A DNA stretch of 64,000 nt from Candidatus Binatia bacterium. GTDB lineage: Bacteria > Desulfobacterota > Binatia > UBA12015. The translations under genes and the position numbers were made by a program. The stretch is taken from assembly GCA_046327915.1 (NCBI GenBank), contig JAXLXO010000004.1, positions 311,064-375,063 of the forward strand, in the 5' to 3' direction. The notes beneath the pieces are model-generated. The model saw only the letters and a list, made by a program, of their open reading frames with translations. It had not been told where the DNA came from and made no database searches. This document shows positions 22,711-63,998 of the stretch, piece after piece; the first letter of the stretch is position 1; each line of letters opens with the position of its first letter.

Positions 22711-22817
22711 GGCGCCGGGCTCCGGTGAGCCGGACCCGTCGCGAACCGCGGAGCGCGATCGCCTGCCGAACGTTGCAGCTTCATCGCCGCCGCCAAGCTA
22801 CCACCGACCTGTCGATG

Positions 22818-22837
22818 CGCGAAGAACAGAATTCGCG
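22818..22837. promoter_or_regulatory. inverted repeat CGCGAA-N8-TTCGCG between nasA-like stop and narG start
   Basis: Seen directly: 'cgcgaagaacagaattcgcg', 2 nt after the nasA-like stop, in a 128-bp gap. Confidence 0.3.
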
Positions 22838-22838
22838 T

Positions 22839-36679: not shown

Positions 36680-36694
36680 TTCCAGTCTCGCAAA

Positions 36695-36745
36695 GGGGGT
36701 CCGGGGCGCAACGCCGGTCGGCGCCCGGGGGTCCGGGGCGCAACG
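36695..36745. promoter_or_regulatory. 19-bp perfect direct repeat GGGGGTCCGGGGCGCAACG x2 (centres 32 bp apart) in divergent promoter region
   Basis: Copies at 36695-36713 and 36727-36745, seen directly. They lie between the ABC ATPase start (36679, minus) and the pilT-like start (36809, plus). Confidence 0.5.
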
Positions 36746-36808
36746 GCACGTCCTAGCACACGGAAACGCGCGGTTGGCAGAGGCGCGCGTCCTGGTCGAG
36801 AATGCGCC

Positions 36809-42628: not shown

Positions 42629-43791
42629 CGCGCCTCCCGCCGGCTGCGCAGCGCGTCCGCGACCGCGACGTACGCGGGCTTCGCCTGGTACTCCTCGTCG
42701 AAGAGCAGCGGCTCGCCCTTGCGCCGCACGAACTGCTCGATGCTGGTCGGATAGCGGTCGGTGAAGAGCCACACCGTCAGCCCCGTGCACGCCGGCACCG
42801 CGGCGCAGGCCGCGCTCACGTCGGAATAGACGGCGCGCTGCCGCTCGAGACGCGCGGCGCGATCGCCGTCGAAGCGCCAGGTGTGGACGTTCAGCTCGGT
42901 GATCTCGACGTCGATGCCGAGCGTCGCGAAGCGGCGCAGCGTCGCCTCGACCTCGTCCCGCGTCGCGACGTCGGCGTCGCCGGGCGGCGCGTAGGGCAGG
43001 AACCACATGTGGCCCTGCAGCCCGACGCCGTGCAGCGGCACGCCCGCGTCGAGCAGGTCGCGCGCGAGCTGGAAGTAGCGGTCCTGCTTGACGCCGGGCT
43101 TGAGCTCGAGGAACTCGTTCAGGAAGAGCTTCGCGTCCGGATCGGCCTCGTGTGCGACGCGGAACGCGTCCGCGACGTGGCCGGGGCCGAGCTTCTGCAG
43201 GAACGCCGAGTCGCGCAGCCCGCCGGTGCCGCCGTCCTCGCCGAACGCGGTGAGCGGCTCGTTGACGACGTCCCAGCGCGTGACGCGGCCCCGATATCGT
43301 CCCATCACGGTGCGGATGTGATCGGCGGTCGCCGCGCGCAGCGTGTCCGCGTCCATCTGCGCGACGTACGCCGGGTTCGGCGGATCCGACGCGCCGCCCC
43401 AGACCAGCGTGTGTCCGCGCACGCGCATGCCGTGCGCCTGCGCGAAGTCGACGATCGCGTCGGCCCCTGAGAAGTCCCAGCGGTCGGGCTCGGGATGGAT
43501 GCGCCCCCACTTCATCGCCGTGTACGGCGTGATCGAGTCGAACTCGCGCGCCAGCACCTCGCCGTAGCGCGCGTCGCCGGACGACGGCGTCAGGTACTCG
43601 TCGTGCGCCGCGGTGCCGATCGAGAGGCCGCTTCCGGCGGCGACGTCGCGCAGCCCTTCCCCGCCGCCGGAGCCGGCGTCACCGCAGCCCGCGCCGCCGG
43701 GCGACGCCGCGAGGAGTCCGGAAAGAGCCATGCGGCACAGCAACGCGCGTCCCGGCGCCGCGCGCAAGCCGGATGTCGATCGCTCGCGCAT
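42625..43791 (-). CDS. glycoside hydrolase family 10 endo-beta-1,4-xylanase-like
   Basis: 'HTLVWG', 'WDVVNEP' (acid/base Glu), 'ITELNV' (nucleophile Glu). Signal/lipoprotein N-terminus (…GGAGCGD). Start could be the internal M 20 codons downstream. Confidence 0.8.
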   Translation of the reverse strand: MRERSTSGLRAAPGRALLCRMALSGLLAASPGGAGCGDAGSGGGEGLRDVAAGSGLSIGTAAHDEYLTPSSGDARYGEVLAREFDSITPYTAMKWGRIHPEPDRWDFSGADAIVDFAQAHGMRVRGHTLVWGGASDPPNPAYVAQMDADTLRAATADHIRTVMGRYRGRVTRWDVVNEPLTAFGEDGGTGGLRDSAFLQKLGPGHVADAFRVAHEADPDAKLFLNEFLELKPGVKQDRYFQLARDLLDAGVPLHGVGLQGHMWFLPYAPPGDADVATRDEVEATLRRFATLGIDVEITELNVHTWRFDGDRAARLERQRAVYSDVSAACAAVPACTGLTVWLFTDRYPTSIEQFVRRKGEPLLFDEEYQAKPAYVAVADALRSRREAR

Positions 43792-46895: not shown

Positions 46896-48932
46896 ATGCA
46901 CCGCCTGCGCTTCGAGCTCGAGGCGACCGCGCCCGGATCGTCCGCGCGCGCGGGACGCCTGCACACGCTGCACGGCGAGGTGCTCACGCCCGTGTTCATG
47001 CCGGTGGGCACGCAGGCGACCGTCAAGGGCCTGCCGGTGGAGGACCTGATCGAGTCCGGCGCGCAGGTCCTGCTCGCGAACGCGTACCACCTGCTGCTGC
47101 GGCCGGGACCCGAGGTCTTCCGGCACGTCGGCGGCATCCACCGCTTCATGAACTGGCAGCGCCCGATCCTGACGGACTCCGGCGGCTTCCAGGTGTTCTC
47201 GCTGCCCAACGAGCGCGTCATCACCGAGGACGGCGCCGTCTTCAAGAGCTACGTCGACGGGCGCACGATCGTGCTCAGCCCGGAGCACAGCATCGCCACG
47301 CAGCTCGCGATCGGCAGCGACATGCTGATGGCGATGGACGTCTGCGTGCCCTCGACGTCGGACCACGACACGGCTGCCGCGGCCATGGAGCGCACGCACC
47401 GCTGGGCGGCGCGCAGCCTCGACGCGCGCGGCGACGCGCCGCAGGCGCTGTTCGGCATCGTGCAGGGCGCGTGCTTCGACGACCTGCGCCGCGAGAGCGC
47501 CGACGTGCTCACGCGGATGACGTTCGACGGCTTCGCGGTCGGCGGGCTCGCGGTCGGCGAGACCAGGCACGAACGCGAGCGCTGCACGGCGCTGGTCACG
47601 GCGCTGCTGCCGCAGGATCGTCCGCGCTATCTGATGGGCGTCGGCACGCCGATCGACCTGCTCGAGGCGGTCGATCGCGGCATCGACATGTTCGACTGCA
47701 CGATCCCGTCGTCGCTCGCGAAGCAGGGCGTGGTCTACACGTCCACGGGACGCTTCGCGCTGTCGCGCGGCGTCTACAAGCTCGCCGACGTGCCGGTCGA
47801 CGCGCAGTGCCCCTGCTCCACCTGCGCGACCTACTCGCGGGCGTATCTGCACCACCTGATCAAGGCCGGCGAGCCGCTCGCGTGGACGCTGCTGACGCGC
47901 CACAACCTGCGCTTCTACCACGACCTGATGGCGGCGATGCGCGCGGCGATCCTCGACGGCACGTTCGCCGCGCTGCGCGACGAGCGGCGACCTCTGCTCG
48001 AGCGCATCGACGACGAGCACCCCGCGATCGTTCCCGTCGTGCGGCGGCGGCGCCGCGGCGAGGACGTGCTGGCGCGCTTCGACGTGCGCATCGCGGAGGA
48101 AGGACACGCGAGCATCGTCGACCGCGCGTCGGGCGAGATCATGCACGCGGGGCTCGACCCGCAGACCGAGGCGCGCGCTCTCTACGTCGAGCAGTCGCGT
48201 CTGGCGGAGCGCCTGCGCGAGACGGCGACGGAGCCGCTGGTGATCTGGGACGTCGGGCTCGGCGCCGCGCACAACGCGATGGCGGCGATCGAATGCATCG
48301 AGGCCGGTGACGAGACGCAGCGTCCGGTGCACCTCGTCAGCTTCGAGAACGACGTCGCGTCGCTGCGGCTCGCGCTGCGCAACGGCCCGCGCTTCCCGCA
48401 CCTGCGCGGCCCGGCGCCGGGCAAGCTGCTGCGCTTCGGCGAGTGGCGCGCGGAGGAGACGCCGCTGGTGTGGACGCTGCTGGAGGGCGACTTCCTCGAG
48501 CGCATGGGCGAGGCACCGCCACCCGACCTGATCTTCTGGGATCCGTTCTCGCCGAAGACCGACACGCCGCTCTGGACGCTCGACTGCTTCGAGCGCGTGT
48601 TCGCCGCGTGCGCCGACCGCGACGTCGAGCTGTTCACGTACTCTACGTCGACCGCGATCCGCGCGGCGCTGGTCGCGGCGGGATTCGTGATCGCGCGCGG
48701 CGCGCCGACGGGACCGAAGGCGGAGACCACGCTCGCAATGACGCCTGCCGCGTTCGCGCACGCGGCGCGGCGCGGGCGCGACCCGTTCGGCGCCGAGTGG
48801 CTCGACCGCTGGCGCCGCAGCGACGCGCGCTGGCCGTCCGACGTCACGGCCGAAACGCGCGACGCCTTCGCCGAGCGCATCCTCGGCGCGCTGCAGCTGC
48901 GCGGTACGGGGTCCCGTCAAGCCAGCGAGTGA
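46896..48932 (+). CDS. tgt: queuine tRNA-ribosyltransferase fused to C-terminal MnmC-like (DUF752) methyltransferase domain
   Basis: Residues 1-370 show Tgt motifs ('FMPVGT', 'LLANAYHL', 'TDSGGFQ', 'MGVGTP', Zn site 'CPCSTCATYSRAYLHH'). Residues about 430-678 look like a MnmC N-terminal methyltransferase domain ('IWDVGLGAAHN', 'LIFWDPFSPKTDTPLWT', 'TYSTSTAIRAALVAAGF'). Confidence 0.8.
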   Translation: MHRLRFELEATAPGSSARAGRLHTLHGEVLTPVFMPVGTQATVKGLPVEDLIESGAQVLLANAYHLLLRPGPEVFRHVGGIHRFMNWQRPILTDSGGFQVFSLPNERVITEDGAVFKSYVDGRTIVLSPEHSIATQLAIGSDMLMAMDVCVPSTSDHDTAAAAMERTHRWAARSLDARGDAPQALFGIVQGACFDDLRRESADVLTRMTFDGFAVGGLAVGETRHERERCTALVTALLPQDRPRYLMGVGTPIDLLEAVDRGIDMFDCTIPSSLAKQGVVYTSTGRFALSRGVYKLADVPVDAQCPCSTCATYSRAYLHHLIKAGEPLAWTLLTRHNLRFYHDLMAAMRAAILDGTFAALRDERRPLLERIDDEHPAIVPVVRRRRRGEDVLARFDVRIAEEGHASIVDRASGEIMHAGLDPQTEARALYVEQSRLAERLRETATEPLVIWDVGLGAAHNAMAAIECIEAGDETQRPVHLVSFENDVASLRLALRNGPRFPHLRGPAPGKLLRFGEWRAEETPLVWTLLEGDFLERMGEAPPPDLIFWDPFSPKTDTPLWTLDCFERVFAACADRDVELFTYSTSTAIRAALVAAGFVIARGAPTGPKAETTLAMTPAAFAHAARRGRDPFGAEWLDRWRRSDARWPSDVTAETRDAFAERILGALQLRGTGSRQASE

Positions 48933-49493: not shown

Positions 49494-50672
49494 TCAATTG
49501 CGCGCCGCGATCGAGACCACGTCCGCGGGCTGCGCCGTCGTCAAGTAGCTGCGCGCCGCCTCGTCGCCCTGCAGCTCGGCGAGGAAGAACGCCGTCACGT
49601 ACGCCTGTCCGATCGCGATGCCCTCGTCGATCGGCAGGTACGTGAACGCCTCGCCCGGCACGGTCTGCCGCACGCCCTCGCCGCAGCCGGGCGTGAAGTT
49701 GTCGCCGAGGTGGCAGATGTTCGAGAACGACCAGTGGCCCGCGTCGGCGACCTCGACCTTGCGGATCGGACCCGGCGCCTGGTCGAAGTTGAGACGGATG
49801 AACTGGTTGCCGATCTCGCCGATGCTGTTGTCCTCGCGCGCGACCAGATAGAGCACCGGCTGCCCGATGCCGCTCATCGACACGCCGGTGAGCAGCGGGT
49901 TCTCGAACGGTGCCGCGATGCCGAGCCCGGCGACGAAGCGCTTGTCGTCCTGCAGCACGAGCCCGGTCGTGACCGAGCCGAAGCTGTGTCCGAAGACGCC
50001 GAGGCGGCTCTCGTCGAGCGCGCCGCGCAGCGACGCGGGCAGCTGCTCCGCGCCGTTCGTGCCGGCCAGCAGCGCCGTCGTGACGAAGCGGATGTCGGCG
50101 GCGCGGACCTGCAGCACGTCGGTGGTGAGCGGCAGCGTCGGGTCGAACAGCGTGTCGCCGGCGTGGTCGGGTGCCGCGACGACGAAGCCGTGGCTCGCGA
50201 GACGCTCCGCGATCGAGAAGCTCGAGAAGCGGAAGCACTCGAAGCAGTGCGAGAACACCAGCAGCGGGTAGCCGTCCTTCGTGCTCGCCGGTGCGGCGTC
50301 GCGCGCGGCGTGCGTGCGGCGGCTCGGTCCCGGATCGGGCGACTCGGCGAGCAGCGCCGCGTAGCGTGCGCGATCGTCGGCCGACGCGAAGAAGTCCTCG
50401 ACCGGCGCGCCCTTCTCGGCCGCGGCGCGCGCGCTCGCGACCGCGGGATACCAGACCTCGACGGTCAGCGAGCGTCCCCGCGCCTGATCGGTGAGAACGA
50501 TCGTCGTGCTCGCGGGCGGGTACGGACCGGCCCCGTCGGGCGCCGCGGCGCCGCCGCCCGAGGACGTGCTGCCGCAGCCCCACGCCGTGGCGACGATCAG
50601 CGCCGCGAGCAGCAGCTTGACGGGACGTCGGTTCCGGTGCGGGAGCGGGTGGCGGCGGGTCGCGTGCGGCAT
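49494..50672 (-). CDS. alpha/beta-hydrolase lipoprotein (PAF-acetylhydrolase/lipase-like)
   Basis: Lipobox 'ATAWGCGS'. Nucleophile elbow 'GHSFG'. The Arg-rich 5' part of ORF 49494..52595 was rejected. Confidence 0.65.
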   Translation of the reverse strand: MPHATRRHPLPHRNRRPVKLLLAALIVATAWGCGSTSSGGGAAAPDGAGPYPPASTTIVLTDQARGRSLTVEVWYPAVASARAAAEKGAPVEDFFASADDRARYAALLAESPDPGPSRRTHAARDAAPASTKDGYPLLVFSHCFECFRFSSFSIAERLASHGFVVAAPDHAGDTLFDPTLPLTTDVLQVRAADIRFVTTALLAGTNGAEQLPASLRGALDESRLGVFGHSFGSVTTGLVLQDDKRFVAGLGIAAPFENPLLTGVSMSGIGQPVLYLVAREDNSIGEIGNQFIRLNFDQAPGPIRKVEVADAGHWSFSNICHLGDNFTPGCGEGVRQTVPGEAFTYLPIDEGIAIGQAYVTAFFLAELQGDEAARSYLTTAQPADVVSIAARN

Positions 50673-51830: not shown

Positions 51831-52610
51831 ATGCTGATCCTCTTCGAGCACCCGCTGTCGCCGTACGCGCAGAAGGTCAAGATCGCGCTCTACGAGAAGG
51901 GCATCCCGTTCGAGGCGAAGACCCCGGACCTGTTCGGCCAGACCGAGCAGGCCTTCCTCGACTCGAGCCCGCGCCGCGAGGTGCCGAGCCTGGTCGACGA
52001 CGGCTTCACCGTCTTCGACTCGACGATCATCCTCGAGTACCTCGAGGATCGCTTCCCCGAGCCGCGACTGCTGCCGCCGACGCCGCAGGACCGTGCGCGC
52101 GTGCGCATGCTCGAGGAGATCTGCGACACGTACTACGAGGCGATCAACTGGGGCATGGCCGAGATCCTGGTGTTCGGCCGCGCGCAGGGCGAACTGGCGC
52201 AGCAGATGACGGCGCGCGCGGCGGAGCAGACCGCGGGCCTGCACCGCTGGCTCGAGCGCGAGCTCGGCGCGCGCGAGTGGTTCAACGGCGCCGCGTTCGG
52301 CTGGGGCGACCTGTGCGTCTACCCGTACGTCGCCGCATCGGCGAACTGGGGATTCGCGGCACCCGCGGGATCGCGGCTCGCCGCATGGCTGGAGCGCGTC
52401 GCGGCGCGCGACGGCACGAAGAAGTGCGCCGAGGCGGTGGCGACGGTGATGGCGTCCTTCCAGAATCTCGACCCGCTCGTCGAGTCGGGCGTGTTCGTCC
52501 GCGAGTACCGCGACCATCGACTGGAGTGGATGATCCGCTCCGGCGGCATCGAGGTCATTCGCGAGGGGCTCGCCCGGAAGAACATCCGCTTCCACGTCGA
52601 GATCGATTGA
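51831..52610 (+). CDS. glutathione S-transferase-family protein
   Basis: 'MLILFEHPLSPYAQKVKIALYEKGIPFE' is a thioredoxin-like GST N-domain, followed by a C-terminal helical domain. Confidence 0.75.
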   Translation: MLILFEHPLSPYAQKVKIALYEKGIPFEAKTPDLFGQTEQAFLDSSPRREVPSLVDDGFTVFDSTIILEYLEDRFPEPRLLPPTPQDRARVRMLEEICDTYYEAINWGMAEILVFGRAQGELAQQMTARAAEQTAGLHRWLERELGAREWFNGAAFGWGDLCVYPYVAASANWGFAAPAGSRLAAWLERVAARDGTKKCAEAVATVMASFQNLDPLVESGVFVREYRDHRLEWMIRSGGIEVIREGLARKNIRFHVEID

Positions 52611-52618
52611 CGCGTGCG

Positions 52619-53506
52619 ATGAGCGACTCCCTGCAGCGGCTCCTCGACGTCCTCGACCTCGAGCGCATCGAGGCCAATCTCTTCCGCGGCCAGAACCCGA
52701 AGGACCTGCGGCGCCGGCTCTTCGGCGGGCAGGTGCTCGCGCAGGGACTCGTCGCGGCGATGCGCACCGTCGAGGGGCGCCTCGCGCACTCGCTGCACGC
52801 GTACTTCCTGCGCCCCGGCGACGCGCGCGTGCCGACGATCTTCGAGGTCGACCGCGTGCGCGACGGCGGCACGTACACGACGCGTCTGGTGAAGGCGATC
52901 CAGCACGGCGAGGCGATCCTCAACATGTCGGTCTCGTTCCAGGTCGAGACCGAGGGCCTCGAACACCAGATCGCCATGCCGGACGAGCCGAAGGAGCCGG
53001 GCGGCATCCTCTACGAGGAGGAGATGAAGAGCGGCGTCGAGGCGCTCGGCTTCGCGCCGCCCGAGGGCGACATGCTGTTCGACCCGCCGGTCGAGATCCG
53101 CACGCCGGGCGGGCTGCGCATGTTCGATCCGGCGGAGCGCGCGCCGCACACCAGCAGCTGGGTGCGCGCCAAGGGCCGCCTGCCCGACGATCCCGCGATC
53201 CACCAGTGCGTGCTCGCGTACGCGTCCGACATGACGCTGCTGTCGAACGCGGTGAACGCGCACCCGATCGCGGTGACGTCGACGAGCTTCCAGTCGGCCT
53301 CCCTCGACCACGCCATGTGGTTCCACCGCCCGTTCCGCATCGACGACTGGCTGCTCTACGTGATGGACAGCCCGGTGAGCGCGCGACAGCGCGGCTTCTG
53401 CCGCGGCACGTTCTTCACCCGCGACGGGCAGCTGGTCGCGTCCTGCGCGCAGGAGGGGATGATCCGCGTCCGCCGCGGCAAGGGACAAGATCAAACGTCG
53501 CAGTGA
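52619..53506 (+). CDS. tesB: acyl-CoA thioesterase II
   Basis: 'LFRGQNPKDLRRRLFGGQVLAQ', 'HSLHAYFLRPGD', 'HAMWFHRPF' are TesB double-hotdog motifs. The start coordinate may be off by one. Confidence 0.8.
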   Translation: MSDSLQRLLDVLDLERIEANLFRGQNPKDLRRRLFGGQVLAQGLVAAMRTVEGRLAHSLHAYFLRPGDARVPTIFEVDRVRDGGTYTTRLVKAIQHGEAILNMSVSFQVETEGLEHQIAMPDEPKEPGGILYEEEMKSGVEALGFAPPEGDMLFDPPVEIRTPGGLRMFDPAERAPHTSSWVRAKGRLPDDPAIHQCVLAYASDMTLLSNAVNAHPIAVTSTSFQSASLDHAMWFHRPFRIDDWLLYVMDSPVSARQRGFCRGTFFTRDGQLVASCAQEGMIRVRRGKGQDQTSQ

Positions 53507-53648
53507 CCGCTGGACAGCCCCCCGCTCGTTTGCCATCAACGCCCGACCCACCGGCGACCAGGCGCGCATCGCTCCATCCGTGCGCGAAACCGGCGACACC
53601 ACCCGACCTGCCGGTGGGCGGACCATCGAAACACGGAGGGGGCGACAG

Positions 53649-54614
53649 ATGAGGAACCTTTTCAACACCCGGTCACGCGGAGTCCGCCACGCGGTCGCGA
53701 TGCTCGCCGTCGCACTGGCACTGCCGTGCAGCGCCGTCTTCGCGCAGGACGCCGAGGAGACGCTCGACGAGGAGTCCGCGCCGCAGGCCGGCTTCGTCGG
53801 CGAGGTCGGCTACGCGTGGCAGGGCGAGTCGGACATCGACGGCGGCGGCGGCGCGAGCATGCACGTCAATCGCTTCGACGTCGGTCTCCTCGGCCGGCTC
53901 GACTTCGCGGAGCGCTTCCGCTGGACCAACTCGCTCTTCTACGCCGCGAACGACTACAAGTTCGACGGTGCCGGATTCTCCGCCGGCAATCCGTGGGGCA
54001 CCGTCAATACCCTGCGGCTGCAGACCAAGCTGCGCTTCGCGATCGACGAGCAGTGGGGCATCTCGGCCGGCGGCGTGTTCACGTTCGCGCCCGAGAGCGG
54101 CGCCGACTGGGGCGACAGCTTCACCGGCGGCGGCCTGCTCGCGGCGGACTACCGCGCAAGCAAGGATTTCATGGTGAGCCTCGGCGCCGCCGTGGTGAGC
54201 CAGATCGAGGACGACGCGCGCGTCGTGCCGTCGGTGATCATGGTGTGGACGCCGCAGGACGAGTGGGCGGTGCGCGTCGGTGCGGTGCCGGCGAGCGGCG
54301 GTGCCGCGGCCGCGGCCGAAGTCGCCTACCGCATCGCGGAGCCGGTCGAGATCGGACTCGGCGCGCTCTACAACCAGCGCCGCTTCCGTCTCGACGACGG
54401 CGGCCCCGCGCCCGACGGCGTCGGCGAGGACAACAACCTGCCCGTGCGCCTGCGGCTCGGCTGGAACGCGCTGCCGAACCTGTCCTTCAACGCGCTCGCC
54501 GGTGTCGCGCTCGCGGGATCGCTGCAGCTCGACGACCGGTCGGGCAACACGCTCCGGGATCAGAACTACGACCCGGCCCCGTACGTCGGCATGCGCATGA
54601 TCGGCTCGCTCTGA
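53649..54614 (+). CDS. outer-membrane beta-barrel protein (hypothetical)
   Basis: Signal peptide with 'AVFAQDA' cleavage site. Alternating amphipathic beta-strand pattern. Strong GGAGGGGG RBS. No C-terminal Phe. Confidence 0.55.
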   Translation: MRNLFNTRSRGVRHAVAMLAVALALPCSAVFAQDAEETLDEESAPQAGFVGEVGYAWQGESDIDGGGGASMHVNRFDVGLLGRLDFAERFRWTNSLFYAANDYKFDGAGFSAGNPWGTVNTLRLQTKLRFAIDEQWGISAGGVFTFAPESGADWGDSFTGGGLLAADYRASKDFMVSLGAAVVSQIEDDARVVPSVIMVWTPQDEWAVRVGAVPASGGAAAAAEVAYRIAEPVEIGLGALYNQRRFRLDDGGPAPDGVGEDNNLPVRLRLGWNALPNLSFNALAGVALAGSLQLDDRSGNTLRDQNYDPAPYVGMRMIGSL

Positions 54615-54642: not shown

Positions 54643-55221
54643 TCAGCGGACTTCCGGCGCGGCGCGCTGCGGACGCGCGTCGACGAGGTGCACCGACATC
54701 GCGCCCAGGCGCTCGAAGAGCGCCGCCTCGTCGCGGATCGGCCACCAGTCGTAGAGGAAGATCTCGAGCGGCCGCCACAGCGCGATCGCGCCGCCGACGA
54801 GCAGGCTCTCGCGCAGAAGCTCGCCGAACGCCCCGTGCCCGACCATCTCCATCACCAGGTCGCCGAGCAGGATCGCCGTGCCGAGGAAGGCCACGCCGAT
54901 CGCGAGGCACGTCCGGCCGAGGCGGAACAGGCGCTTCAGCCGGTGCCGCTCGCTCACCGCGCGGTGCGAGAAGAACTCGTGCACGGCCTGCCCGAGCACG
55001 GCGCGATCCTCCTCGCGCGGTGCCTCGCCGCCGAGATGGACGACGAGCGCGAGCGGGCGGCGCCGGTCGACGTCGCGGCTCCACTCGAGGATGAACGCCT
55101 CCGCGTTCGGATCGAGGTCGCGATCTCGGAACGGTGCCGCGTCCATGGCGTTGAAGAGCTGCTTGAGCTCGTTGACGCGGAGCTCGATGCGCGCGGCGTT
55201 TGCGGGGATCGGCGCGGTCAT
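54643..55221 (-). CDS. hypothetical membrane protein
   Basis: 192 aa with normal composition and two hydrophobic helices (…TCLAIGVAFLGTAILLGDLVMEMVG…, …LLVGGAIALWRPLEIFLYDWW…). The upstream part of ORF 54643..57156 was rejected as antisense to the mlaA-fusion gene. Confidence 0.45.
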   Translation of the reverse strand: MTAPIPANAARIELRVNELKQLFNAMDAAPFRDRDLDPNAEAFILEWSRDVDRRRPLALVVHLGGEAPREEDRAVLGQAVHEFFSHRAVSERHRLKRLFRLGRTCLAIGVAFLGTAILLGDLVMEMVGHGAFGELLRESLLVGGAIALWRPLEIFLYDWWPIRDEAALFERLGAMSVHLVDARPQRAAPEVR

Positions 55222-55254
55222 GAATCGGCCCTCTGATAGGAAGTGGAGCTCGAG

Positions 55255-57222
55255 ATGACAAGCAAGACCTTCGTGGCCATCGGCCTGCTCGCCGCCGTCG
55301 CGCTGGGGTGCGCGCAGCCGGTGAAGCGTCGCGACTGGTCCGGCTACGACGGTCCGGGAGCCGCGGCCTTCGCGCGCGGCACGTTCCCGCCGCCGATGGT
55401 CGAGGACCCGGTCGAGCCCGCGAATCGCGTGGTGTGGGGCGTGAACGACTTCTTCATCGAGTGGGTCGCGAGCCCGGTCGGCCGCGTCTACCGCTTCGTC
55501 ACGCCGCGCTTCCTGCGCGACCGCATCCGCGACTTCGCGCGCAACCTCGAGTTCCCGCGCAACTTCGTCGCCAACGTCCTGCAGGGCGAGCTCGGCGGCG
55601 CCGGACGCGAGACCGGCCGCTTCCTCGCCAACACCACCGTCGGCATCGCCGGCCTGTGGGATCCGGCGAGCCACTGGTTCCACATCGCGCCGGCCGAGGA
55701 GGACTTCGGACAGGTGTTCGCGCGCTGGGGCTGGCGCCGCTCGACCTACTTGACGCTGCCGATCTTCGGTCCGAGCACGGTGCGCGACGGCATCGGCCTG
55801 ATCCCCGACACTGCGCTCGATCCCGCGCAGCTCTTCTTCCCGGCCGCGCCCGCATTCAAGTTCAACGACCTGGTCGACACGCTCGACGAGTACCAGCGCT
55901 TCTCGGCGAGCTCGTTCGACATGTACGACGACGCGCGCCTGCTCGCGACCTTCGCGCGCGAGGTGGAGATCGAGGAGCCGCGCTGGAGCACGCCGAGCGA
56001 GGACACCGGCGCGGTGCAGACGCTCGGTGCGACGCTGCTCGTCCCGCAGGACGACGGCTTCGCGCGGACGCTCTCGACGGGCTTCGTGCGCGTGCCCGGC
56101 AACGGCGGCCTGCTGCCGTTCTCGTACCGCATGCAGGACGAGCGCGCGCCGCTGGTGTTCATCGTGCCCGGTCTCGGCGCGCACCGCCTGAGTGGAGCCG
56201 TCGTGGCGCTCGCGGAGCTCGCGTGGCAGCGCGGCTGCTCGGTGGCGATCGTCAGCAGCACGATGAACGCAGAGTTCCTCGCCGACGGCGGCAGCGTCCC
56301 CGTTCCGGGCCACGCGCCGACCGACGCGCGCGACGTCCACCTCGCGCTCGACCAGATGGACCACGACCTCGAGCGCCGCTTCCCGGGGCGCGTCGCGCGG
56401 AAGGTCTACCTCGGCTACTCGCTGGGCGCCTTCCACGGCTTCTACATCGCCGCCTCGGAGCGCGACCCCGGCGACGCGCTGGTGCGCTTCGACGACTACG
56501 TGCTGGTCGACCCGCCGGTGAAGCTGGTCGCCGGCATGGAGAAGCTCGACGGCTTCGCGACGGTTCCGCGCGCGCTGCCGGTGGAGCAGCGCGACGCCGA
56601 GGCGCGGCGCATCCTGCTCAAGGGCGTCGCGGTCGGACAGCGCGCGCTCGCGGCGCAGACCGGAGCGGAGATCTTCAGCCACTACACGGTCGACTCGTAC
56701 GAGGAGCTGCCGCCGGCGCTGCCGCAGCCGCTGCCGTTCACCAACGCCGAGGCCGAGTACCTGGTCGGCTTCGCGTTCCAGCGCTCGCTGAAGGCCGTGC
56801 TGTACGCGAGCCAGGAGCGCGACGACCTCGGCATCCTGCTGACCGAGCGCCGTCCGCTGCGGCGCAATCCGCCGTACACCGAGATCGGCGACTACTCGTT
56901 CGCGATGTACTTCTACGGCTTCGTGCTGCCGTACCACCGCGACCATCTCGGGAGCGTCGCGACGGCGGAGCAGATGGTCGAGGCGAACGACCTGCGCGCG
57001 ATCGCCGACGGCCTGCGCGACAATCCGAAGCTGCACGTGTTCGCCAACGAGAACGACTTCCTCACGTCCGACGAGGATCTCGCGTGGCTCTCGGCGACCG
57101 TCGGCAACGAGCGCGTGCGCATCTTCCCGAGCGGCGGACACCTCGGGAACCTGCACCGTCCCGACGTGCAGGCCGTGATCCTGGCACCGCTCACGGCGCC
57201 AGCGCCGACGCCCGCGCCGTGA
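55255..57222 (+). CDS. MlaA/VacJ-family lipoprotein fused to a C-terminal alpha/beta-hydrolase domain
   Basis: Lipobox 'VALGCAQP'. Residues about 50-200 carry MlaA motifs ('NRVVWGVNDFF', 'NFVANVLQG', 'RFLANTTVGIAGLWDPA', 'EDFGQVFARWGW', 'LPIFGPSTVRDGIG'). The C-terminal 450 aa has a 'GYSLGA' nucleophile elbow, 'VFIVPGLGAH' and a terminal 'SGGHLGNLH'. Confidence 0.7.
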   Translation: MTSKTFVAIGLLAAVALGCAQPVKRRDWSGYDGPGAAAFARGTFPPPMVEDPVEPANRVVWGVNDFFIEWVASPVGRVYRFVTPRFLRDRIRDFARNLEFPRNFVANVLQGELGGAGRETGRFLANTTVGIAGLWDPASHWFHIAPAEEDFGQVFARWGWRRSTYLTLPIFGPSTVRDGIGLIPDTALDPAQLFFPAAPAFKFNDLVDTLDEYQRFSASSFDMYDDARLLATFAREVEIEEPRWSTPSEDTGAVQTLGATLLVPQDDGFARTLSTGFVRVPGNGGLLPFSYRMQDERAPLVFIVPGLGAHRLSGAVVALAELAWQRGCSVAIVSSTMNAEFLADGGSVPVPGHAPTDARDVHLALDQMDHDLERRFPGRVARKVYLGYSLGAFHGFYIAASERDPGDALVRFDDYVLVDPPVKLVAGMEKLDGFATVPRALPVEQRDAEARRILLKGVAVGQRALAAQTGAEIFSHYTVDSYEELPPALPQPLPFTNAEAEYLVGFAFQRSLKAVLYASQERDDLGILLTERRPLRRNPPYTEIGDYSFAMYFYGFVLPYHRDHLGSVATAEQMVEANDLRAIADGLRDNPKLHVFANENDFLTSDEDLAWLSATVGNERVRIFPSGGHLGNLHRPDVQAVILAPLTAPAPTPAP

Positions 57223-57250: not shown

Positions 57251-57646
57251 TCAGACGCCCAGGGCCTTCGCCTTCAGCTTCTCGAACTCGGCCGCGGAGA
57301 TCGTGCCGGAGTCGAGCAGCGCCTTCGCCTTCTGGATCTGATCCGCCGGTCCTTCGCCGCCCGCGACCGAACGCACGTAGCTGTCGAAGCGGGTCTGGGC
57401 CTCCTGCATCGCGCGCGCCGAGCGCGCCGCCATGCCGTTGCCGCGGACCATCAGGTAGACGAACACGCCGATGAACGGCGACACGATCAGCGCGATGATC
57501 CACACCGCCTTCACGCCGCCCGACATCTCGTGATCGCGGAACAGGTCTCCCATGACGTTCATCAGCAGCCAGAACCACACGACGAACAGGAAGATCTCGA
57601 CCATCCAGATCAGAACGTCCCAGTGGCCGAAGGTCGATTGCATCAT
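57251..57646 (-). CDS. PLDc_N-domain small membrane protein with C-terminal SHOCT domain
   Basis: 'MMQSTFGHWDVLIWMVEIFLFVVWFWLLMNV…KAVWIIALIVSPFIGVFVYLM' then 'ADQIQKAKALLDSGTISAAEFEKLKAKAL'. AGGGGGGA RBS. Confidence 0.7.
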   Translation of the reverse strand: MMQSTFGHWDVLIWMVEIFLFVVWFWLLMNVMGDLFRDHEMSGGVKAVWIIALIVSPFIGVFVYLMVRGNGMAARSARAMQEAQTRFDSYVRSVAGGEGPADQIQKAKALLDSGTISAAEFEKLKAKALGV

Positions 57647-60386: not shown

Positions 60387-61157
60387 ATGACGCGCAACCG
60401 CCTGCTGGTCGGCTTCTCGGCGCTGAGCGTCGCGGCGGCACTGCTGCTGCCCGCGGTGCCGCAGCCGCTCGACTACCACGACTTCGCCGACCACCGTGAC
60501 TTCTGCGGCATCGCGAACTTCCTCGACGTCGCGTCGAACGTCGGTTTCCTGCTGGTCGGACTGCTCGGCCTGCGCGTGGTCGCGCGCAGCTCCACCGAGT
60601 TCGAGCAGCCCGTCGAGCGCATTCCCTACGCCGTGTTCTTCGTCGGCATGGTGCTGACCGCGCTCGGCTCCGCGTACTACCACCTGTCGCCCGACAACGA
60701 GCGCCTGTTCTGGGACCGGCTGCCGATGACGGTCGCGTTCATGTCGCTGATCTGCGCGCAGGTGGTGGACCGCGTGTCGGTGCGCGGGGGACTCGCGCTG
60801 CTCGTGCCTCTCCTGCTGCTCGGCGGCGCGTCGGTGGTCTACTGGCTCGCGACCGAGCGCGCGGGCGACGGCAACGTCGTCCCGTACGGCGTCCTGCAGG
60901 GATACTCGGTGGTGATGCTCGCGGTGTTCGCGGTGTCGCATCCGTCGCGCTACACGCGCGGCGCCGACATCTGGTGGGTGTTCGCGGGCTACGTCGCGGC
61001 GAAGGTCCTCGAGGCGGCGGACCGCCAGGCGTTCGAGATCGGCCACGTGCTGAGCGGACACACGCTGAAGCACCTGGTCGCGGCGGTCGCGGGAGCGGTG
61101 CTCTGCCGGATGCTGGCGCGGCGCACGCTGCGCGCGTACGTGCCGGCCGTCGCCTGA
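60387..61157 (+). CDS. ceramidase-family (alkaline ceramidase-like) membrane hydrolase
   Basis: 7-TM protein with 'SAYYHLSPDNERLFWDRLPMT' and C-terminal 'GHTLKHL' His motifs. 22 nt downstream of DUF2252. Confidence 0.6.
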   Translation: MTRNRLLVGFSALSVAAALLLPAVPQPLDYHDFADHRDFCGIANFLDVASNVGFLLVGLLGLRVVARSSTEFEQPVERIPYAVFFVGMVLTALGSAYYHLSPDNERLFWDRLPMTVAFMSLICAQVVDRVSVRGGLALLVPLLLLGGASVVYWLATERAGDGNVVPYGVLQGYSVVMLAVFAVSHPSRYTRGADIWWVFAGYVAAKVLEAADRQAFEIGHVLSGHTLKHLVAAVAGAVLCRMLARRTLRAYVPAVA

Positions 61158-61188: not shown

Positions 61189-63267
61189 TCAGCGCACGTC
61201 GTCGGCGGGATCGTCCGCGCCCGACGAGTCGTCGGCGCCCGGCTCGGCGAGCGGCAGGGTCTCGCGCGCTCCCTCGGGCACGTCGAGCTCGACGGTCGCC
61301 GGCTCCGCGGCGAAGCGATCGCCCGGCGGGCGCGGCTCGAGGCGTCGCGGGCAGGCGACGGCGTCGTCGTCGCACACCCGATCGGCGTGCTCGACGAGGA
61401 TGCGGCGCACCTCCTCGATCGCGATCGGGTTGCGCTGCACGGAGTGTCCCGAGCGCGGCACGACCAGCTCCGACGCCACCCAGTCGAGGTGCGCGCTGTC
61501 GTAGCGCACGACGCCGTCGGTCTGGCCGTACGGCGGCAGGTCGCCGCGCACCGGGATGATCGAGTGCGCCTTCACGCCGCTCGGCGGCAGCGTGTCGACG
61601 AGCGCCTCGAGCAGCACGCTGCCGGGACGCATGCCGTACACCGAGCCGAACACCGGACGGCGCGGGTCGAAGCGCAGCGCGTCGGGGTTGCCGGTGACGA
61701 GGTCGCCGGTCGCGCCGGCGAGCGTCTGCGGCAGCTGCACGAAGCGCGCGAGCACGCTCGCGAACGAGCTGTCGGCCAGCGCCGCGCCACGGTGCGGCGT
61801 CGCGATGAACACGAGGCTCTTCACGAACGGCAGCGGCTCGAAGACGAACACCTGGCGCAGCAGCTCGCGCGTCTCCTCGCTCACGTACAGCTCGTCGATC
61901 GGCCGCGAGCTGATGCCCTTCCAGAAGCGGTCGCCGGACTCGATGGCGGTCATGTGCGTCAGCAGCCCGCCCTGGCTGTGGCCGATCACGACCATCTGCT
62001 GCAGCGCCGGATCGCGGTGCCCGGGATCGAGCCGGTCCACGGCGCCGGAAAGTGCTTGACGCAGCCGCATCGCCGAGTACGGGATCGCGTTGCCGCTGTC
62101 GTAGAAGAAGAACCAGAACTGGAAGCGTCCGCGCAGCCGCCGGTCGTTGGCGAGGACGTTGATCATGTCGGCCCAGCGTCCCGGGCTCGACCCGGTGCCG
62201 TGCACGAACACGACCGGGATGCGGCCCGGCCGGTACGGCTCGAGGAAGGTCAGCGGCTGCTCGATCTCGCTGCTGATCAGGTCGCCGCGCAGGATCCCGA
62301 AGCGCTCGAAGCGCCAGATGCGCGAGCGGCTCAGGCTGTAGGCGAGCGTCGCGCTGGGCTCCGACTCGAGCGGCACGCGCTCGCCGGCGATCTCGACGCC
62401 GTCGGTCTCGTAGCGGTTGTAGACGCGCAGCGTGGACTCGATCGTCGGCTGCGTGGCCTGCGTGCGCGGGTCGGGGATGCGCAGCAGCGCCGTGGTCGGG
62501 ACCTTCATCTCCGGCGGCAGGTAGAGCGACTCCGACGACGTCGCGTCGAGCGACTTGGTGCTCGCCGCGAGCGGCGCGCCGAGGCCCGGATCGCGGAAGC
62601 GTGCGCCGAGCCCGCGCACCTCGAGCTCCGCGACCGGCACGAACCCGTACATCCAGCGGTTCGCCCACTCGAGGCTCTGCTCGTCGAAGGTGACCGACAG
62701 CTTCTGTCCGAACGGCAGCGCGAAGTCGCCGGAGTGGAGATCGACCAGCGAGCCGTCGGGCGACGCGAAGCCCGCCGTCAGCGCGCGGTTGTAGAGGTCG
62801 GTCGCGATGCGCAGGCGGGGATCGAAGCGGTCGGGACGATCGGCCTTGTCGTCGGGAAAGAGGAACGCGTACGCGAACACGGCGGCGGCGAGGTCGTACT
62901 CGCGCCGTCCGCTGTCCTCGGCGTGCTTGAAGCACAGCTCGGCGAGCGCGAAGAGCGTGCCCGCGGGGTGGCGGACGGTGACCAGCCGCTCGTGCAGCAC
63001 GTCGAGCGCCGCGGCCGGGTTGCGCCGGAACTGCTCGGTCAGACCCCAGCGGTTGAGCACGTTCTCGCTGAAGATGCTGGGCGAGTCCGAGTTGAGCGCG
63101 CTGCGCGCGAGCTCGGCGCTCACCTGGCGCGCCGGCACGCGGCGCACCGTGATCGGCGGTCCGCACGCCGCGAGACCGAGCGTCAAGAGCAGAGTTGCGC
63201 TCACCCGCGCGACGCGCGATCGCCGCCTGCGTGCCGCCGTCGCCGCACCGCTCGTCGCGGGCATCAT
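61189..63267 (-). CDS. alpha/beta-hydrolase (lipase-like) lipoprotein
   Basis: Lipobox 'LGLAACGPP'. 'VVFVHGTGSS' and nucleophile elbow 'GHSQGG'. The 5' 240 codons of ORF 61189..63984 were rejected (Arg-rich). Confidence 0.65.
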   Translation of the reverse strand: MMPATSGAATAARRRRSRVARVSATLLLTLGLAACGPPITVRRVPARQVSAELARSALNSDSPSIFSENVLNRWGLTEQFRRNPAAALDVLHERLVTVRHPAGTLFALAELCFKHAEDSGRREYDLAAAVFAYAFLFPDDKADRPDRFDPRLRIATDLYNRALTAGFASPDGSLVDLHSGDFALPFGQKLSVTFDEQSLEWANRWMYGFVPVAELEVRGLGARFRDPGLGAPLAASTKSLDATSSESLYLPPEMKVPTTALLRIPDPRTQATQPTIESTLRVYNRYETDGVEIAGERVPLESEPSATLAYSLSRSRIWRFERFGILRGDLISSEIEQPLTFLEPYRPGRIPVVFVHGTGSSPGRWADMINVLANDRRLRGRFQFWFFFYDSGNAIPYSAMRLRQALSGAVDRLDPGHRDPALQQMVVIGHSQGGLLTHMTAIESGDRFWKGISSRPIDELYVSEETRELLRQVFVFEPLPFVKSLVFIATPHRGAALADSSFASVLARFVQLPQTLAGATGDLVTGNPDALRFDPRRPVFGSVYGMRPGSVLLEALVDTLPPSGVKAHSIIPVRGDLPPYGQTDGVVRYDSAHLDWVASELVVPRSGHSVQRNPIAIEEVRRILVEHADRVCDDDAVACPRRLEPRPPGDRFAAEPATVELDVPEGARETLPLAEPGADDSSGADDPADDVR

Positions 63268-63998
63268 GGACGCGCCACCGCCGGCTCGCGTCGCAGCTCC
63301 GGCGCCGCATCGTACACCGCTCTTCCGACGCGCTCGGGGTAGTCGTCGGGGAAGGTCCACAGGCCCTTGCCCGGTCCGTGCACGAGGCCGCGCCACGCCG
63401 GATCGAACGGGTAGACCATCGACAGCAGCACGTCGCTCGACACGCGCTGGTTCGCGAACCAGTAGCCGTGTCCGCGCATGCCGGTGGTCTCGTGGCGCCC
63501 GTAGACGCCGGCGACGTCGATGCCGACCAGACGGTCGTTGCCGACGAGCGTCTCGAGATCCTCGCGCGTCAGCTCGTCGAAGCGCGGACGTCCGAGACGC
63601 GAGGCGCGCGCGAGGAACGCCGCCGCCTTCAGCGCCACGTCGTCCTCGGAGAGATAGACCTCGGTGCGGCGCGCGATCGTCGTGAGCGCCGGCAGCTGCG
63701 CGCGCGCGAACGTCGCGAGGTCGATGTCGGCGGCGACGAAGATCGCGTTGGCGATGCGGTAGCGGCGCTGCAGCGCATCGGCGTCGTCCTCGGGATGGCG
63801 CTCGCGCAGCGCGACCAGCGCATCGGCGAGCAGCGGCGAGCCGCAGCTGAAGGCGATCACGTTGAGGCGCTTCGCCTTGCTGCGCTCCGCGACCAGCGTG
63901 ATCAGCCGCTCGATGTCGGGCACGAAGGCGCGCGCACGCGGGCAGTCGGTGAGGTAGCTCCACACGCGCGTTCCCGTCGGCCACGCGAAGGTCATCAC
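63264..63998 (-). CDS. DUF900-like alpha/beta-hydrolase, 5'-truncated by window edge
   Basis: '…NVIAFSCGSPLLADAL…' and C-terminal '…HGYWF…'. The ORF runs to the window end, so it is a partial gene. ATGA overlap with the downstream lipase gene. Confidence 0.5.
   Translation of the reverse strand: MMTFAWPTGTRVWSYLTDCPRARAFVPDIERLITLVAERSKAKRLNVIAFSCGSPLLADALVALRERHPEDDADALQRRYRIANAIFVAADIDLATFARAQLPALTTIARRTEVYLSEDDVALKAAAFLARASRLGRPRFDELTREDLETLVGNDRLVGIDVAGVYGRHETTGMRGHGYWFANQRVSSDVLLSMVYPFDPAWRGLVHGPGKGLWTFPDDYPERVGRAVYDAAPELRREPAVARP

What the first reader, a model, noticed from the sequence alone, without database searches (positions are those of the whole stretch)
55255..57222. MlaA/VacJ lipoprotein domain fused to a GxSxG alpha/beta-hydrolase domain
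MlaA normally is a roughly 250-aa OM lipoprotein that extracts outer-leaflet phospholipids. Here an MlaA-like N-terminal domain is followed by about 450 aa with a GYSLGA nucleophile elbow and conserved His/Asp. This suggests phospholipid removal coupled directly to hydrolysis, functionally like PldA, within one polypeptide.
Basis: partly seen in the sequence, partly recalled or inferred. Interest (0 to 1): 0.6.

Follow-up and report, generated by a model that had tools for sequence, protein, structure and literature searches.

The report
MlaA channel fused to MlaY-like lipase
This gene encodes an outer-membrane lipoprotein that joins a phospholipid-extracting MlaA domain to a lipase-type serine hydrolase; this pairing was described in 2023 as the two-protein MlaYZ system of Pseudomonas, but here it is one chain with the domains in the opposite order to the one published fusion.

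Summary

I recovered P. aeruginosa mlaY-mlaZ. The C-terminal domain aligns with MlaY (26% identity, E=7e-28), and Ser389/Asp601/His629 fall on MlaY S187/D388/H415. The N-terminal domain aligns with MlaZ (35%, E=3e-29).

That paper already reports an MlaA-MlaY fusion, but in the order hydrolase then MlaA. This protein has the reverse order. It belongs to a separate, large lineage (Binatia, Myxococcota, Planctomycetota, Verrucomicrobiota, Lentisphaerota). In that lineage an MlaA domain lay directly upstream of the hydrolase in 83 of 85 loci; the other two contigs start too close to the hydrolase to tell. The two are usually fused and sometimes adjacent genes.

Hydrolase phylogeny separates this lineage from MlaY proper in 200/200 bootstraps. 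No activity has been tested. I rate it a new variant of a known kind, of modest interest.

The parts
55245..55248 (+). Shine-Dalgarno-like GGAG, 6 nt upstream of the ATG
   Evidence: Read directly from the sequence. It supports the ATG at 55255 rather than the GTG at 55243 as the start, which agrees with the NCBI protein.
55255..57222 (+). Whole coding sequence: a 655-aa MlaA-hydrolase fusion lipoprotein (stop codon included)
55255..55311 (+). Lipoprotein signal peptide ending in the lipobox V-A-L-G-C (Cys19)
   Evidence: The sequence is MTSKTFVAIGLLAAVALGC. Cys19 is conserved in at least 90% of 44 homologues.
55402..55938 (+). MlaA/VacJ domain (residues 50-228)
   Evidence: Pfam PF04333, E=2.6e-51. 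35% identity to P. aeruginosa MlaZ, E=3e-29. 27% identity to E. coli MlaA, E=1e-12.
55939..56076 (+). Inter-domain linker and N-terminal lead-in of the hydrolase domain (residues 229-274)
   Evidence: It lies between the Pfam MlaA envelope and the first strand of the hydrolase domain in the model.
56077..57204 (+). MlaY-like alpha/beta-hydrolase (lipase-type) domain (residues 275-650)
56167..56178 (+). PGLG loop after strand beta3 (residues 305-308), the likely oxyanion-hole loop
   Evidence: Pro305 and Gly306 are invariant in both alignments. The loop directly follows strand 298-304 in the model. The oxyanion role is inferred from canonical alpha/beta-hydrolase topology.
56413..56430 (+). Nucleophile elbow GYSLGA; the Ser389 codon is at 56419-56421
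   Evidence: Invariant G-x-S-x-G. Ser389 aligns with MlaY Ser187. It sits between strand 380-388 and helix 390-401.
56524..57015 (+). Large helical cap/lid insertion (residues ~424-587), including the variable, low-confidence stretch 470-489
   Evidence: The secondary structure of the model shows helices 424-587 between strands 414-418 and 593-598. This segment is rich in insertions and deletions in the alignments.
57055..57057 (+). Catalytic acid Asp601 (motif N-D-F-L)
   Evidence: Invariant. It aligns with MlaY Asp388 and follows strand 593-598.
57139..57141 (+). Catalytic His629 (motif G-G-H-L-G)
   Evidence: Invariant. It aligns with MlaY His415, the residue shown by H415A mutation to be required in P. 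aeruginosa.

Best explanation
The gene encodes a single-chain version of the MlaZ/MlaY outer-membrane lipid-asymmetry system. The protein is exported and lipid-anchored through Cys19. Its N-terminal MlaA-family domain sits in the inner leaflet of the outer membrane, where it forms the channel that lets mislocalised outer-leaflet glycerophospholipids leave the outer leaflet. Instead of handing them to MlaC and the MlaFEDB transporter, it delivers them to the covalently tethered periplasmic alpha/beta-hydrolase domain. There Ser389/Asp601/His629 deacylate them, in a phospholipase A or lipase-type reaction. The products are therefore released on the periplasmic side for recycling. Shown here: the domain composition, the lipobox, the fold, the invariant triad, homology of both halves to P. 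aeruginosa MlaZ and MlaY with catalytic residues aligned, and the obligatory genomic linkage of the two domains. Inferred from the Pseudomonas genetics and from MlaA structures: the substrate, the direction of lipid flow, the physical hand-over between domains and the products.
Against: No biochemical activity has been shown for this protein, and as far as the papers read here show, none for purified MlaY either. Identity to MlaY is only about 25%, and the hydrolase belongs to a separate clade (200/200 bootstraps), so substrate specificity may differ. The MlaA domain is modelled with low confidence in residues 128-192, and I could not inspect inter-domain geometry. My rough NJ tree does not place the MlaA domain with P. 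aeruginosa MlaZ rather than with canonical MlaA proteins (all hydrolase-associated versus stand-alone: 1/200 bootstraps). Whether the genome also has MlaC/MlaFEDB or PldA is unknown.
Confidence: 0.72

Rival explanations
1. The protein is an acyltransferase or lipid-remodelling enzyme rather than a degradative lipase. In this reading the MlaA domain supplies outer-leaflet phospholipid as an acyl donor, and the Ser-His-Asp domain transfers the acyl chain to another envelope acceptor, functionally like PagP or other alpha/beta-hydrolase-fold acyltransferases. Alternatively, it acts on a non-glycerophospholipid lipid.
For: The alpha/beta-hydrolase fold with this triad supports both hydrolysis and transfer. 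Structural neighbours are generic esterases, thioesterases and lipases at only 11-17% identity, so chemistry cannot be read from them. The hydrolase clade is distinct from MlaY proper (200/200). The window is rich in other lipid-hydrolase-like genes: TesB, a ceramidase-like protein, a PAF-acetylhydrolase-like protein and DUF900.
Against: The only experimentally studied relative, MlaY, behaves genetically as a degradative enzyme that E. coli PldA can replace, and MlaYZ in turn complements an E. coli pldA defect (PMC10374164). No acceptor-binding domain or conserved partner gene is seen, and the neighbourhoods differ between homologues.
Confidence: 0.12
2. The MlaA domain works in a canonical Mla retrograde-transport pathway, passing lipid to MlaC and MlaFEDB encoded elsewhere. 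In this reading the hydrolase domain is an accessory module, such as a lysophospholipase clean-up, regulatory or docking domain, and is not fed by the channel.
For: By HMM score and identity, the MlaA domain is about as similar to canonical MlaA proteins of beta- and gammaproteobacteria as to P. aeruginosa MlaZ. The rest of the genome was not available, so MlaC/MlaFEDB may well exist.
Against: The hydrolase is never found without an adjacent or fused MlaA domain in the loci where this could be judged. The two domains give congruent clades: hydrolase 200/200 and MlaA 155/200. This argues for a dedicated two-part machine. In P. aeruginosa, MlaZ works independently of MlaBCDEF and needs MlaY. No Mla ABC components lie in the window.
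Confidence: 0.1
3. The fusion is an artefact: two adjacent genes (mlaA-like and hydrolase) were merged by a sequencing or assembly frameshift in a metagenome-assembled genome.
For: The source is a MAG. Genuinely split Z-then-Y gene pairs exist in Victivallales.
Against: Over 200 homologue clusters from independent samples have the same 650-700-aa single ORF. So do 92 of the 150 best representative clusters and about 67 GTDB genomes from several phyla. The linker is conserved in alignment and shows no sign of a frame change.
Confidence: 0.01

Closest known systems
P. aeruginosa MlaZ (PA3239) + MlaY (PA3238) system (Guest, Lee, Wang, Silhavy, PNAS 2023; PMC10374164)
   Same: It has the same two modules: an MlaA-family outer-membrane protein and a lipase-type alpha/beta hydrolase. 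Both halves are homologous (E=3e-29 and 7e-28). The catalytic Ser, Asp and His align residue for residue. The two modules are tightly linked in the genome.
   Different: In Pseudomonas they are two separate proteins, with gene order mlaY then mlaZ, and the lipobox is on MlaY. Here there is one chain in the order MlaA then hydrolase, with the only lipid anchor on the MlaA end. The hydrolase is about 25% identical to MlaY and falls in a different clade (200/200 bootstraps).
Published MlaY-MlaA fusion, UniProt A0A3A4W9L3 (unclassified Desulfobacteraceae), cited in PMC10374164
   Same: It is a single polypeptide that combines an MlaY-like alpha/beta hydrolase with an MlaA domain. The authors used it as evidence that the two act together.
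   Different: In A0A3A4W9L3 the hydrolase is N-terminal (residues 107-454) and MlaA is C-terminal (529-741), and its hydrolase is 40% identical to MlaY. The window protein has the reverse order (MlaA 50-228, hydrolase 275-650), is 655 aa long and is about 25% identical to MlaY. None of the 150 best representative clusters has the hydrolase-then-MlaA order. I could not retrieve the A0A3A4W9L3 sequence to compare it directly.
Canonical MlaA (VacJ) of E. coli and Klebsiella, in complex with OmpC/OmpF (PDB 5nup, 5nuo, 8i8r)
   Same: It is a Pfam MlaA domain and a lipoprotein, presumably with the same channel function for outer-leaflet phospholipids.
   Different: The canonical protein is about 250 aa with no enzyme domain and passes lipid to MlaC and MlaFEDB. 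The window protein scores 49.9 bits against the NCBIfam MlaA equivalog cut-off of 375 and is 27% identical to E. coli MlaA. No hydrolase lies within 2.5 kb of seven canonical mlaA genes examined.
PldA / OMPLA outer-membrane phospholipase A
   Same: It is a functional analogue. It degrades glycerophospholipids that reach the outer leaflet, and it is interchangeable with MlaYZ in complementation tests.
   Different: It has an unrelated fold: a calcium-dependent dimeric beta-barrel with a Ser-His-Asn site in the outer leaflet. The window protein shows no similarity to it (no Pfam hit). It would release its products on the periplasmic side rather than in the outer leaflet.

Membership tests
MlaA/VacJ family (Pfam PF04333) | Match to the family profile above the curated threshold | tested here: met
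   174.5 bits against a cut-off of 25, E=2.6e-51, residues 50-228, covering profile positions 2-185 of 195.
MlaA/VacJ family (Pfam PF04333) | Outer-membrane lipoprotein: signal peptide with a lipobox cysteine | tested here: met
   The N-terminus ends ...AAVALGC with Cys19. The Cys is conserved in at least 90% of homologues. Membrane localisation itself was not tested.
Canonical MlaA of the MlaA-MlaC-MlaFEDB pathway (NCBIfam NF011672 equivalog) | Score above the equivalog cut-off, and Mla ABC-transport partner genes present | tested here: not met
   49.9 bits against a cut-off of 375. No MlaC, MlaD, MlaE or MlaF families were found among the 48 predicted genes of the window. The rest of the genome is not available.
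Alpha/beta-hydrolase fold serine hydrolases | The fold, with the nucleophile elbow G-x-S-x-G after beta5, the acid after beta7 and His after beta8 | tested here: met
MlaY (PA3238)-type periplasmic lipase | Sequence homology to P. aeruginosa MlaY, with S187, D388 and H415 conserved | tested here: met
   BLASTP E=7e-28, 26% identity over 355 aa. S389, D601 and H629 align with S187, D388 and H415. The MlaY sequence came from L085, is 100% identical to a P. aeruginosa protein cluster, and has the PA3234-PA3239 gene order.
MlaY (PA3238)-type periplasmic lipase | Encoded next to, or fused with, an MlaA-family protein | tested here: met
   It is fused here. The linkage is seen in 83 of 85 related loci, and the other two contigs are too short to tell. 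It is also seen in P. aeruginosa, Skermanella and Fusobacterium.
MlaY (PA3238)-type periplasmic lipase | Same orthologous group as PA3238 | tested here: not met
   In an NJ analysis of hydrolase domains, P. aeruginosa, Fusobacterium and Skermanella separate from all MlaA-then-hydrolase forms in 200/200 bootstraps. Identity to the window domain is 21-25%. I treat it as a sister subfamily, not an orthologue.
MlaY (PA3238)-type periplasmic lipase | Phospholipid-degrading activity needed for outer-membrane asymmetry | not testable with these tools
   This is known only genetically for P. aeruginosa. Nothing has been tested for this protein.
MlaZ clade of MlaA homologues (sensu Guest et al. 2023) | The MlaA domain groups phylogenetically with PA3239 rather than with canonical MlaA | tested here: inconclusive
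   It is 35% identical to MlaZ against 27% to E. coli MlaA. It is 29-40% identical to other canonical MlaA proteins. The fused and Z-then-Y MlaA domains form their own group (155/200), but a grouping of all hydrolase-associated domains gets 1/200. The NJ analysis is small and rough.
Published hydrolase-MlaA fusion architecture (A0A3A4W9L3) | Domain order: hydrolase N-terminal, MlaA C-terminal | tested here: not met
   The published order is hydrolase 107-454 then MlaA 529-741. Here it is MlaA 50-228 then hydrolase 275-650.
PldA/OMPLA | Phospholipase A1 beta-barrel domain | tested here: not met
   No Pfam family other than MlaA matches at E<=1. The model is helical plus alpha/beta, not a barrel. 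It is a functional analogue only.

The most novel reading that the evidence does not exclude
The MlaA-then-hydrolase lineage may have arisen independently of, or as an ancient permuted sister to, the Pseudomonas-type MlaY-then-MlaZ pair. It may also be the main, self-sufficient outer-membrane lipid-asymmetry device in large, little-studied diderm groups (Binatia, Myxococcota, Planctomycetota, Verrucomicrobiota including Akkermansia, Lentisphaerota). It could possibly replace both the Mla ABC pathway and PldA there. If so, coupling an MlaA channel to a lipase has been selected at least twice, in both orientations.
Probability: 0.3. Interest if true: 0.5.

Novelty: new variant of a known kind. 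Interest (0 to 1): 0.33.

Why it matters
It gives independent comparative support for the MlaYZ model of outer-membrane lipid homeostasis, in which an MlaA-type channel feeds a periplasmic lipase. The two modules are inseparable across several phyla. They have been joined in both possible orders, and both domains show congruent clades. The single-chain form is a convenient object for structural and biochemical work on how lipid passes from the channel to the active site, because no complex needs to be reconstituted. That hand-over has not been shown directly for MlaYZ. The lineage is also present in Akkermansia and other PVC bacteria whose envelope lipid homeostasis is poorly known. It does not open a new category. 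The protein is already in NCBI as a VacJ family lipoprotein, and the concept is published.

Tried and rejected
1. Foldseek against the AlphaFold database (afdb50), to hit Q9HZ02 (MlaY) directly. The library was unavailable.

2. A genome scan with the diverse hydrolase alignment A2. The narrower alignment A3 returned only PVC-type genomes and no Pseudomonas.

3. A cluster look-up of ten stand-alone hydrolases, to find named organisms. It was uninformative.

4. A profile search with A2, to reach named MlaY proteins. It returned mostly the fused family again.

5. A search with P. aeruginosa MlaY, to find fusions in the hydrolase-then-MlaA order. The top 120 were all Pseudomonas-type stand-alone orthologues, so I could not obtain A0A3A4W9L3 or its relatives for a direct comparison.

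6. A conserved partner gene, for example the upstream DUF6268 beta-barrel as an OmpC-like partner. I rejected this: the neighbourhoods of homologues differ, and the adjacent upstream gene in L003 is unrelated.

7. Bootstrapped trees with Biopython's distance calculator timed out. I redid them with a numpy Kimura-distance NJ. The trees are rough and have no maximum-likelihood support.

8. Supplementary files of the PNAS paper are not held.

9. I could not read model coordinates, so triad distances and the channel-to-active-site geometry were not measured.

Full report
**1. What is in the sequence**

Window 55255-57222 (+) is a 655-codon ORF. Its GC3 is 0.95, typical of real genes in this 72% GC window. 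A GGAG lies 6 nt upstream of the ATG. The product is 100% identical to NCBI MFN8599899.1, 'MAG: VacJ family lipoprotein [Candidatus Binatia bacterium]', from a 393-kb contig.

- **Signal peptide.** Residues 1-19 (MTSKTFVAIGLLAAVALGC) form a lipoprotein signal peptide. The lipobox Cys is conserved in at least 90% of homologues.
- **MlaA domain.** Residues 50-228 match Pfam MlaA PF04333 at E=2.6e-51. The only solved structures found by sequence are MlaA chains.
- **C-terminal part.** The remaining ~427 residues match no Pfam model. NCBIfam gives only a sub-threshold MlaA equivalog hit of 49.9 bits against a cut-off of 375.

**2. The C-terminal domain is a serine hydrolase**

An AlphaFold2 model built on 44 homologues has pTM 0.78 and pLDDT of about 90 over residues 280-650. 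It is weaker in MlaA residues 128-192. The model shows the canonical alpha/beta-hydrolase layout:

- strand 298-304, then the PGLG loop
- strand 380-388, then Ser389 in GYSLGA, then helix 390-401
- a large helical cap, residues 424-587
- strand 593-598, then Asp601
- strand 621-624, then His629

**3. It is a family, not an accident**

The first protein search found 204 full-length homologue clusters of 600-730 aa. Pfam sees only MlaA in all of them. Sources name them MlaA or VacJ lipoprotein, from Binatia, Myxococcota, 'Deltaproteobacteria' and Burkholderiales MAGs.

An exhaustive HMMER search with the C-terminal domain alone found 986 clusters at 50% identity with E<=1e-3. Of the best 150:

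- 92 have the MlaA-then-hydrolase architecture.
- 58 are hydrolase-only. Some are fragments, and about 25 are full-length with their own signal peptide.
- None has the reverse order.

**4. Link to what is known**

A literature search led to Guest, Lee, Wang and Silhavy, PNAS 2023 (PMC10374164). In P. aeruginosa, the MlaA-like protein MlaZ (PA3239) works with the lipoprotein alpha/beta-hydrolase MlaY (PA3238; proposed triad S187, D388, H415). Together they remove and degrade outer-leaflet glycerophospholipids, independently of MlaBCDEF. [quoted passage not shown] That later paper also links MlaY to cardiolipin degradation (PMC11977310). The PNAS authors also noted that some MlaA-family proteins carry an MlaY-like domain, and they cite UniProt A0A3A4W9L3.

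I obtained the P. aeruginosa genes from a PLSDB record that carries the PA3234-PA3239 region. The MlaY sequence is 100% identical to the main P. aeruginosa cluster, and its numbering reproduces S187, D388 and H415.

| Comparison (BLASTP) | Window residues | Identity | E-value |
|---|---|---|---|
| vs P. aeruginosa MlaY (residues 90-420) | 291-634 | 26% | 7e-28 |
| vs P. aeruginosa MlaZ (to its C-terminus) | 39-241 | 35% | 3e-29 |
| vs E. coli MlaA | 8-197 | 27% | 1e-12 |

In the MlaY alignment, Ser389, Asp601 and His629 fall exactly on S187, D388 and H415.

**5. How it differs from the published cases**

The paper gives A0A3A4W9L3 as hydrolase 107-454 followed by MlaA 529-741. That is the same order as the mlaY-mlaZ operon. 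P. aeruginosa, Skermanella and Fusobacterium also have hydrolase then MlaA as adjacent genes. The window protein is the other way round.

A scan of GTDB species genomes with stand-alone relatives returned 80 loci. They come from Victivallales and other Lentisphaerota, Verrucomicrobiota (including an Akkermansia muciniphila MAG), Planctomycetota, Sumerlaeia, Omnitrophota and 'Deltaproteobacteria'. In 78 of these 80 loci, and in all five further contigs examined (L001-L004), an MlaA domain lies directly upstream of the hydrolase on the same strand. The two exceptions, L023 and L030, are contigs that begin too close to the hydrolase to tell. The two domains are fused in about 67 loci. They are separate, abutting or overlapping genes in L001 and L005-L015.

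Neighbour-joining analysis with 200 bootstraps gave:

| Split tested | Support |
|---|---|
| Hydrolase domains: {P. aeruginosa MlaY, Fusobacterium, Skermanella} vs all MlaA-then-hydrolase forms | 200/200 |
| MlaA domains: MlaA-then-hydrolase forms as their own group | 155/200 |
| MlaA domains: all hydrolase-associated vs canonical MlaA | 1/200 |

So the two halves have co-evolved within a lineage that is distinct from MlaYZ proper. Whether its MlaA domain belongs to the 'MlaZ clade' of the paper is unresolved by my rough trees. Split pairs nest among fused forms, so fusion or fission has happened more than once.

**6. Context**

The 48 predicted genes of the window contain no second MlaA, no second copy of this hydrolase, and no MlaC, MlaD, MlaE or MlaF. 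The flanks of three homologues (57-82% identical) share no conserved partner. This fits a self-contained, monocistronic function. The rest of the genome could not be searched.

**7. Mechanism and confidence**

Most likely (about 0.72), the protein is anchored by Cys19 and the MlaA domain forms the outer-membrane channel for outer-leaflet glycerophospholipids. The tethered periplasmic hydrolase then deacylates them with Ser389/Asp601/His629, releasing the products on the periplasmic side.

- **Shown:** the architecture, the fold, the invariant triad, homology to MlaZ and MlaY, and the obligatory linkage of the two domains.
- **Inferred:** the substrate, the direction of flow, the hand-over between domains and the products.

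The rivals are:

- an acyl-transfer or other-lipid role (about 0.12)
- a canonical Mla role with an accessory hydrolase (about 0.10)
- an assembly artefact (about 0.01, effectively excluded)

**8. Verdict**

The finding is real and correctly interpreted. It corresponds to a system described in 2023, including the existence of fusions. What is not described in the papers I could read is the reversed domain order, the size and phyletic spread of this lineage, and its separation from MlaY proper. I rate it a new variant of a known kind, with an interest score of about 0.33.

Noticed in passing
L085:5099-5902 (P. aeruginosa mlaZ) and L085:3734-5095 (mlaY): In this P. aeruginosa record, MlaY carries a lipobox (LALGC). 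MlaZ starts MSRTAHWMFALLLSAAASAQADE, with no cysteine in the signal region. So in the two-protein system the lipid anchor seems to sit on the lipase, whereas in the window fusion it sits on the MlaA end.
   Followed up: no
Proteins P0368-P0479: Many Pseudomonas orthologues of MlaY are named 'serine/threonine protein kinase' or 'PrkA' in NCBI and UniRef. Given the alpha/beta-hydrolase fold and triad, this looks like a propagated misannotation.
   Followed up: no
window 49494-50672 (-), 52607-53506 (+), 60387-61157 (+), 61189-63267 (-), 63264-63998 (-), 3850-5175 (+), 7620-9428 (-): The window is unusually rich in lipid- or ester-hydrolase-like genes: a PAF-acetylhydrolase-like protein, acyl-CoA thioesterase II (TesB), a ceramidase-like membrane protein, a 692-aa Abhydrolase_6 protein, a DUF900 hydrolase and two pectinacetylesterase-like proteins. 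These are not conserved next to homologues of the fusion in L002-L004, although each of those loci also has some alpha/beta hydrolase within 8 kb.
   Followed up: partly
window 53646-54614 (+): A signal-peptide protein with a weak DUF6268 match (E=3.4e-5), possibly an outer-membrane beta-barrel, lies about 640 bp upstream on the same strand. I considered it as an OmpC-like partner of the MlaA domain. It is not conserved beside homologues.
   Followed up: partly
window 57251-57646 (-) and L002:11492-11683: A small membrane protein with PLDc_N and SHOCT domains lies just downstream, convergent. A SHOCT protein is also downstream in the 82%-identical homologue locus L002. This is probably shared synteny of close relatives.
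   Followed up: no
window 54643-55212 (-): A 189-aa predicted membrane protein with no Pfam match is transcribed divergently. Only about 42 bp separate its start from the start of the fusion gene.
   Followed up: no
window 16078-25172 (-): A respiratory nitrate reductase cluster, narG (1237 aa; assigned from its size and position, not scanned against Pfam), narH, narJ and narI, is followed by a second molybdopterin oxidoreductase (777 aa).
   Followed up: no
window 46896-48932 (+): A 678-aa protein combines a complete queuine tRNA-ribosyltransferase domain (TGT, E=5.5e-138) with a C-terminal Methyltransf_30 (MnmC-like) domain. This may be an unusual fusion of tRNA-modification enzymes.
   Followed up: no
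window 38305-43791 (-): Three tandem sulfatase genes are followed by a GH10 glycoside hydrolase. This looks like a sulfated-polysaccharide degradation cluster.
   Followed up: no
window 35759-38308 (+): An 849-aa protein has a type II/IV secretion ATPase (T2SSE) domain only in its C-terminal ~350 residues. Its ~490-aa N-terminal region has no Pfam match.
   Followed up: no
L038 (Akkermansia muciniphila MAG, contig CALPMD020000073.1), 3-1796: An MlaA-then-hydrolase fusion of the same lineage is present in an Akkermansia muciniphila MAG and in many Verrucomicrobiota and Planctomycetota genomes. These are groups whose outer-membrane lipid homeostasis is little studied.
   Followed up: partly
P0173, P0185, P0218, P0229, P0240, P0241, P0264: Seven representative proteins of 535-586 aa carry the hydrolase domain at the N-terminus, followed by a ~130-150-aa C-terminal extension that is not an MlaA domain. 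Its nature is unknown.
   Followed up: no
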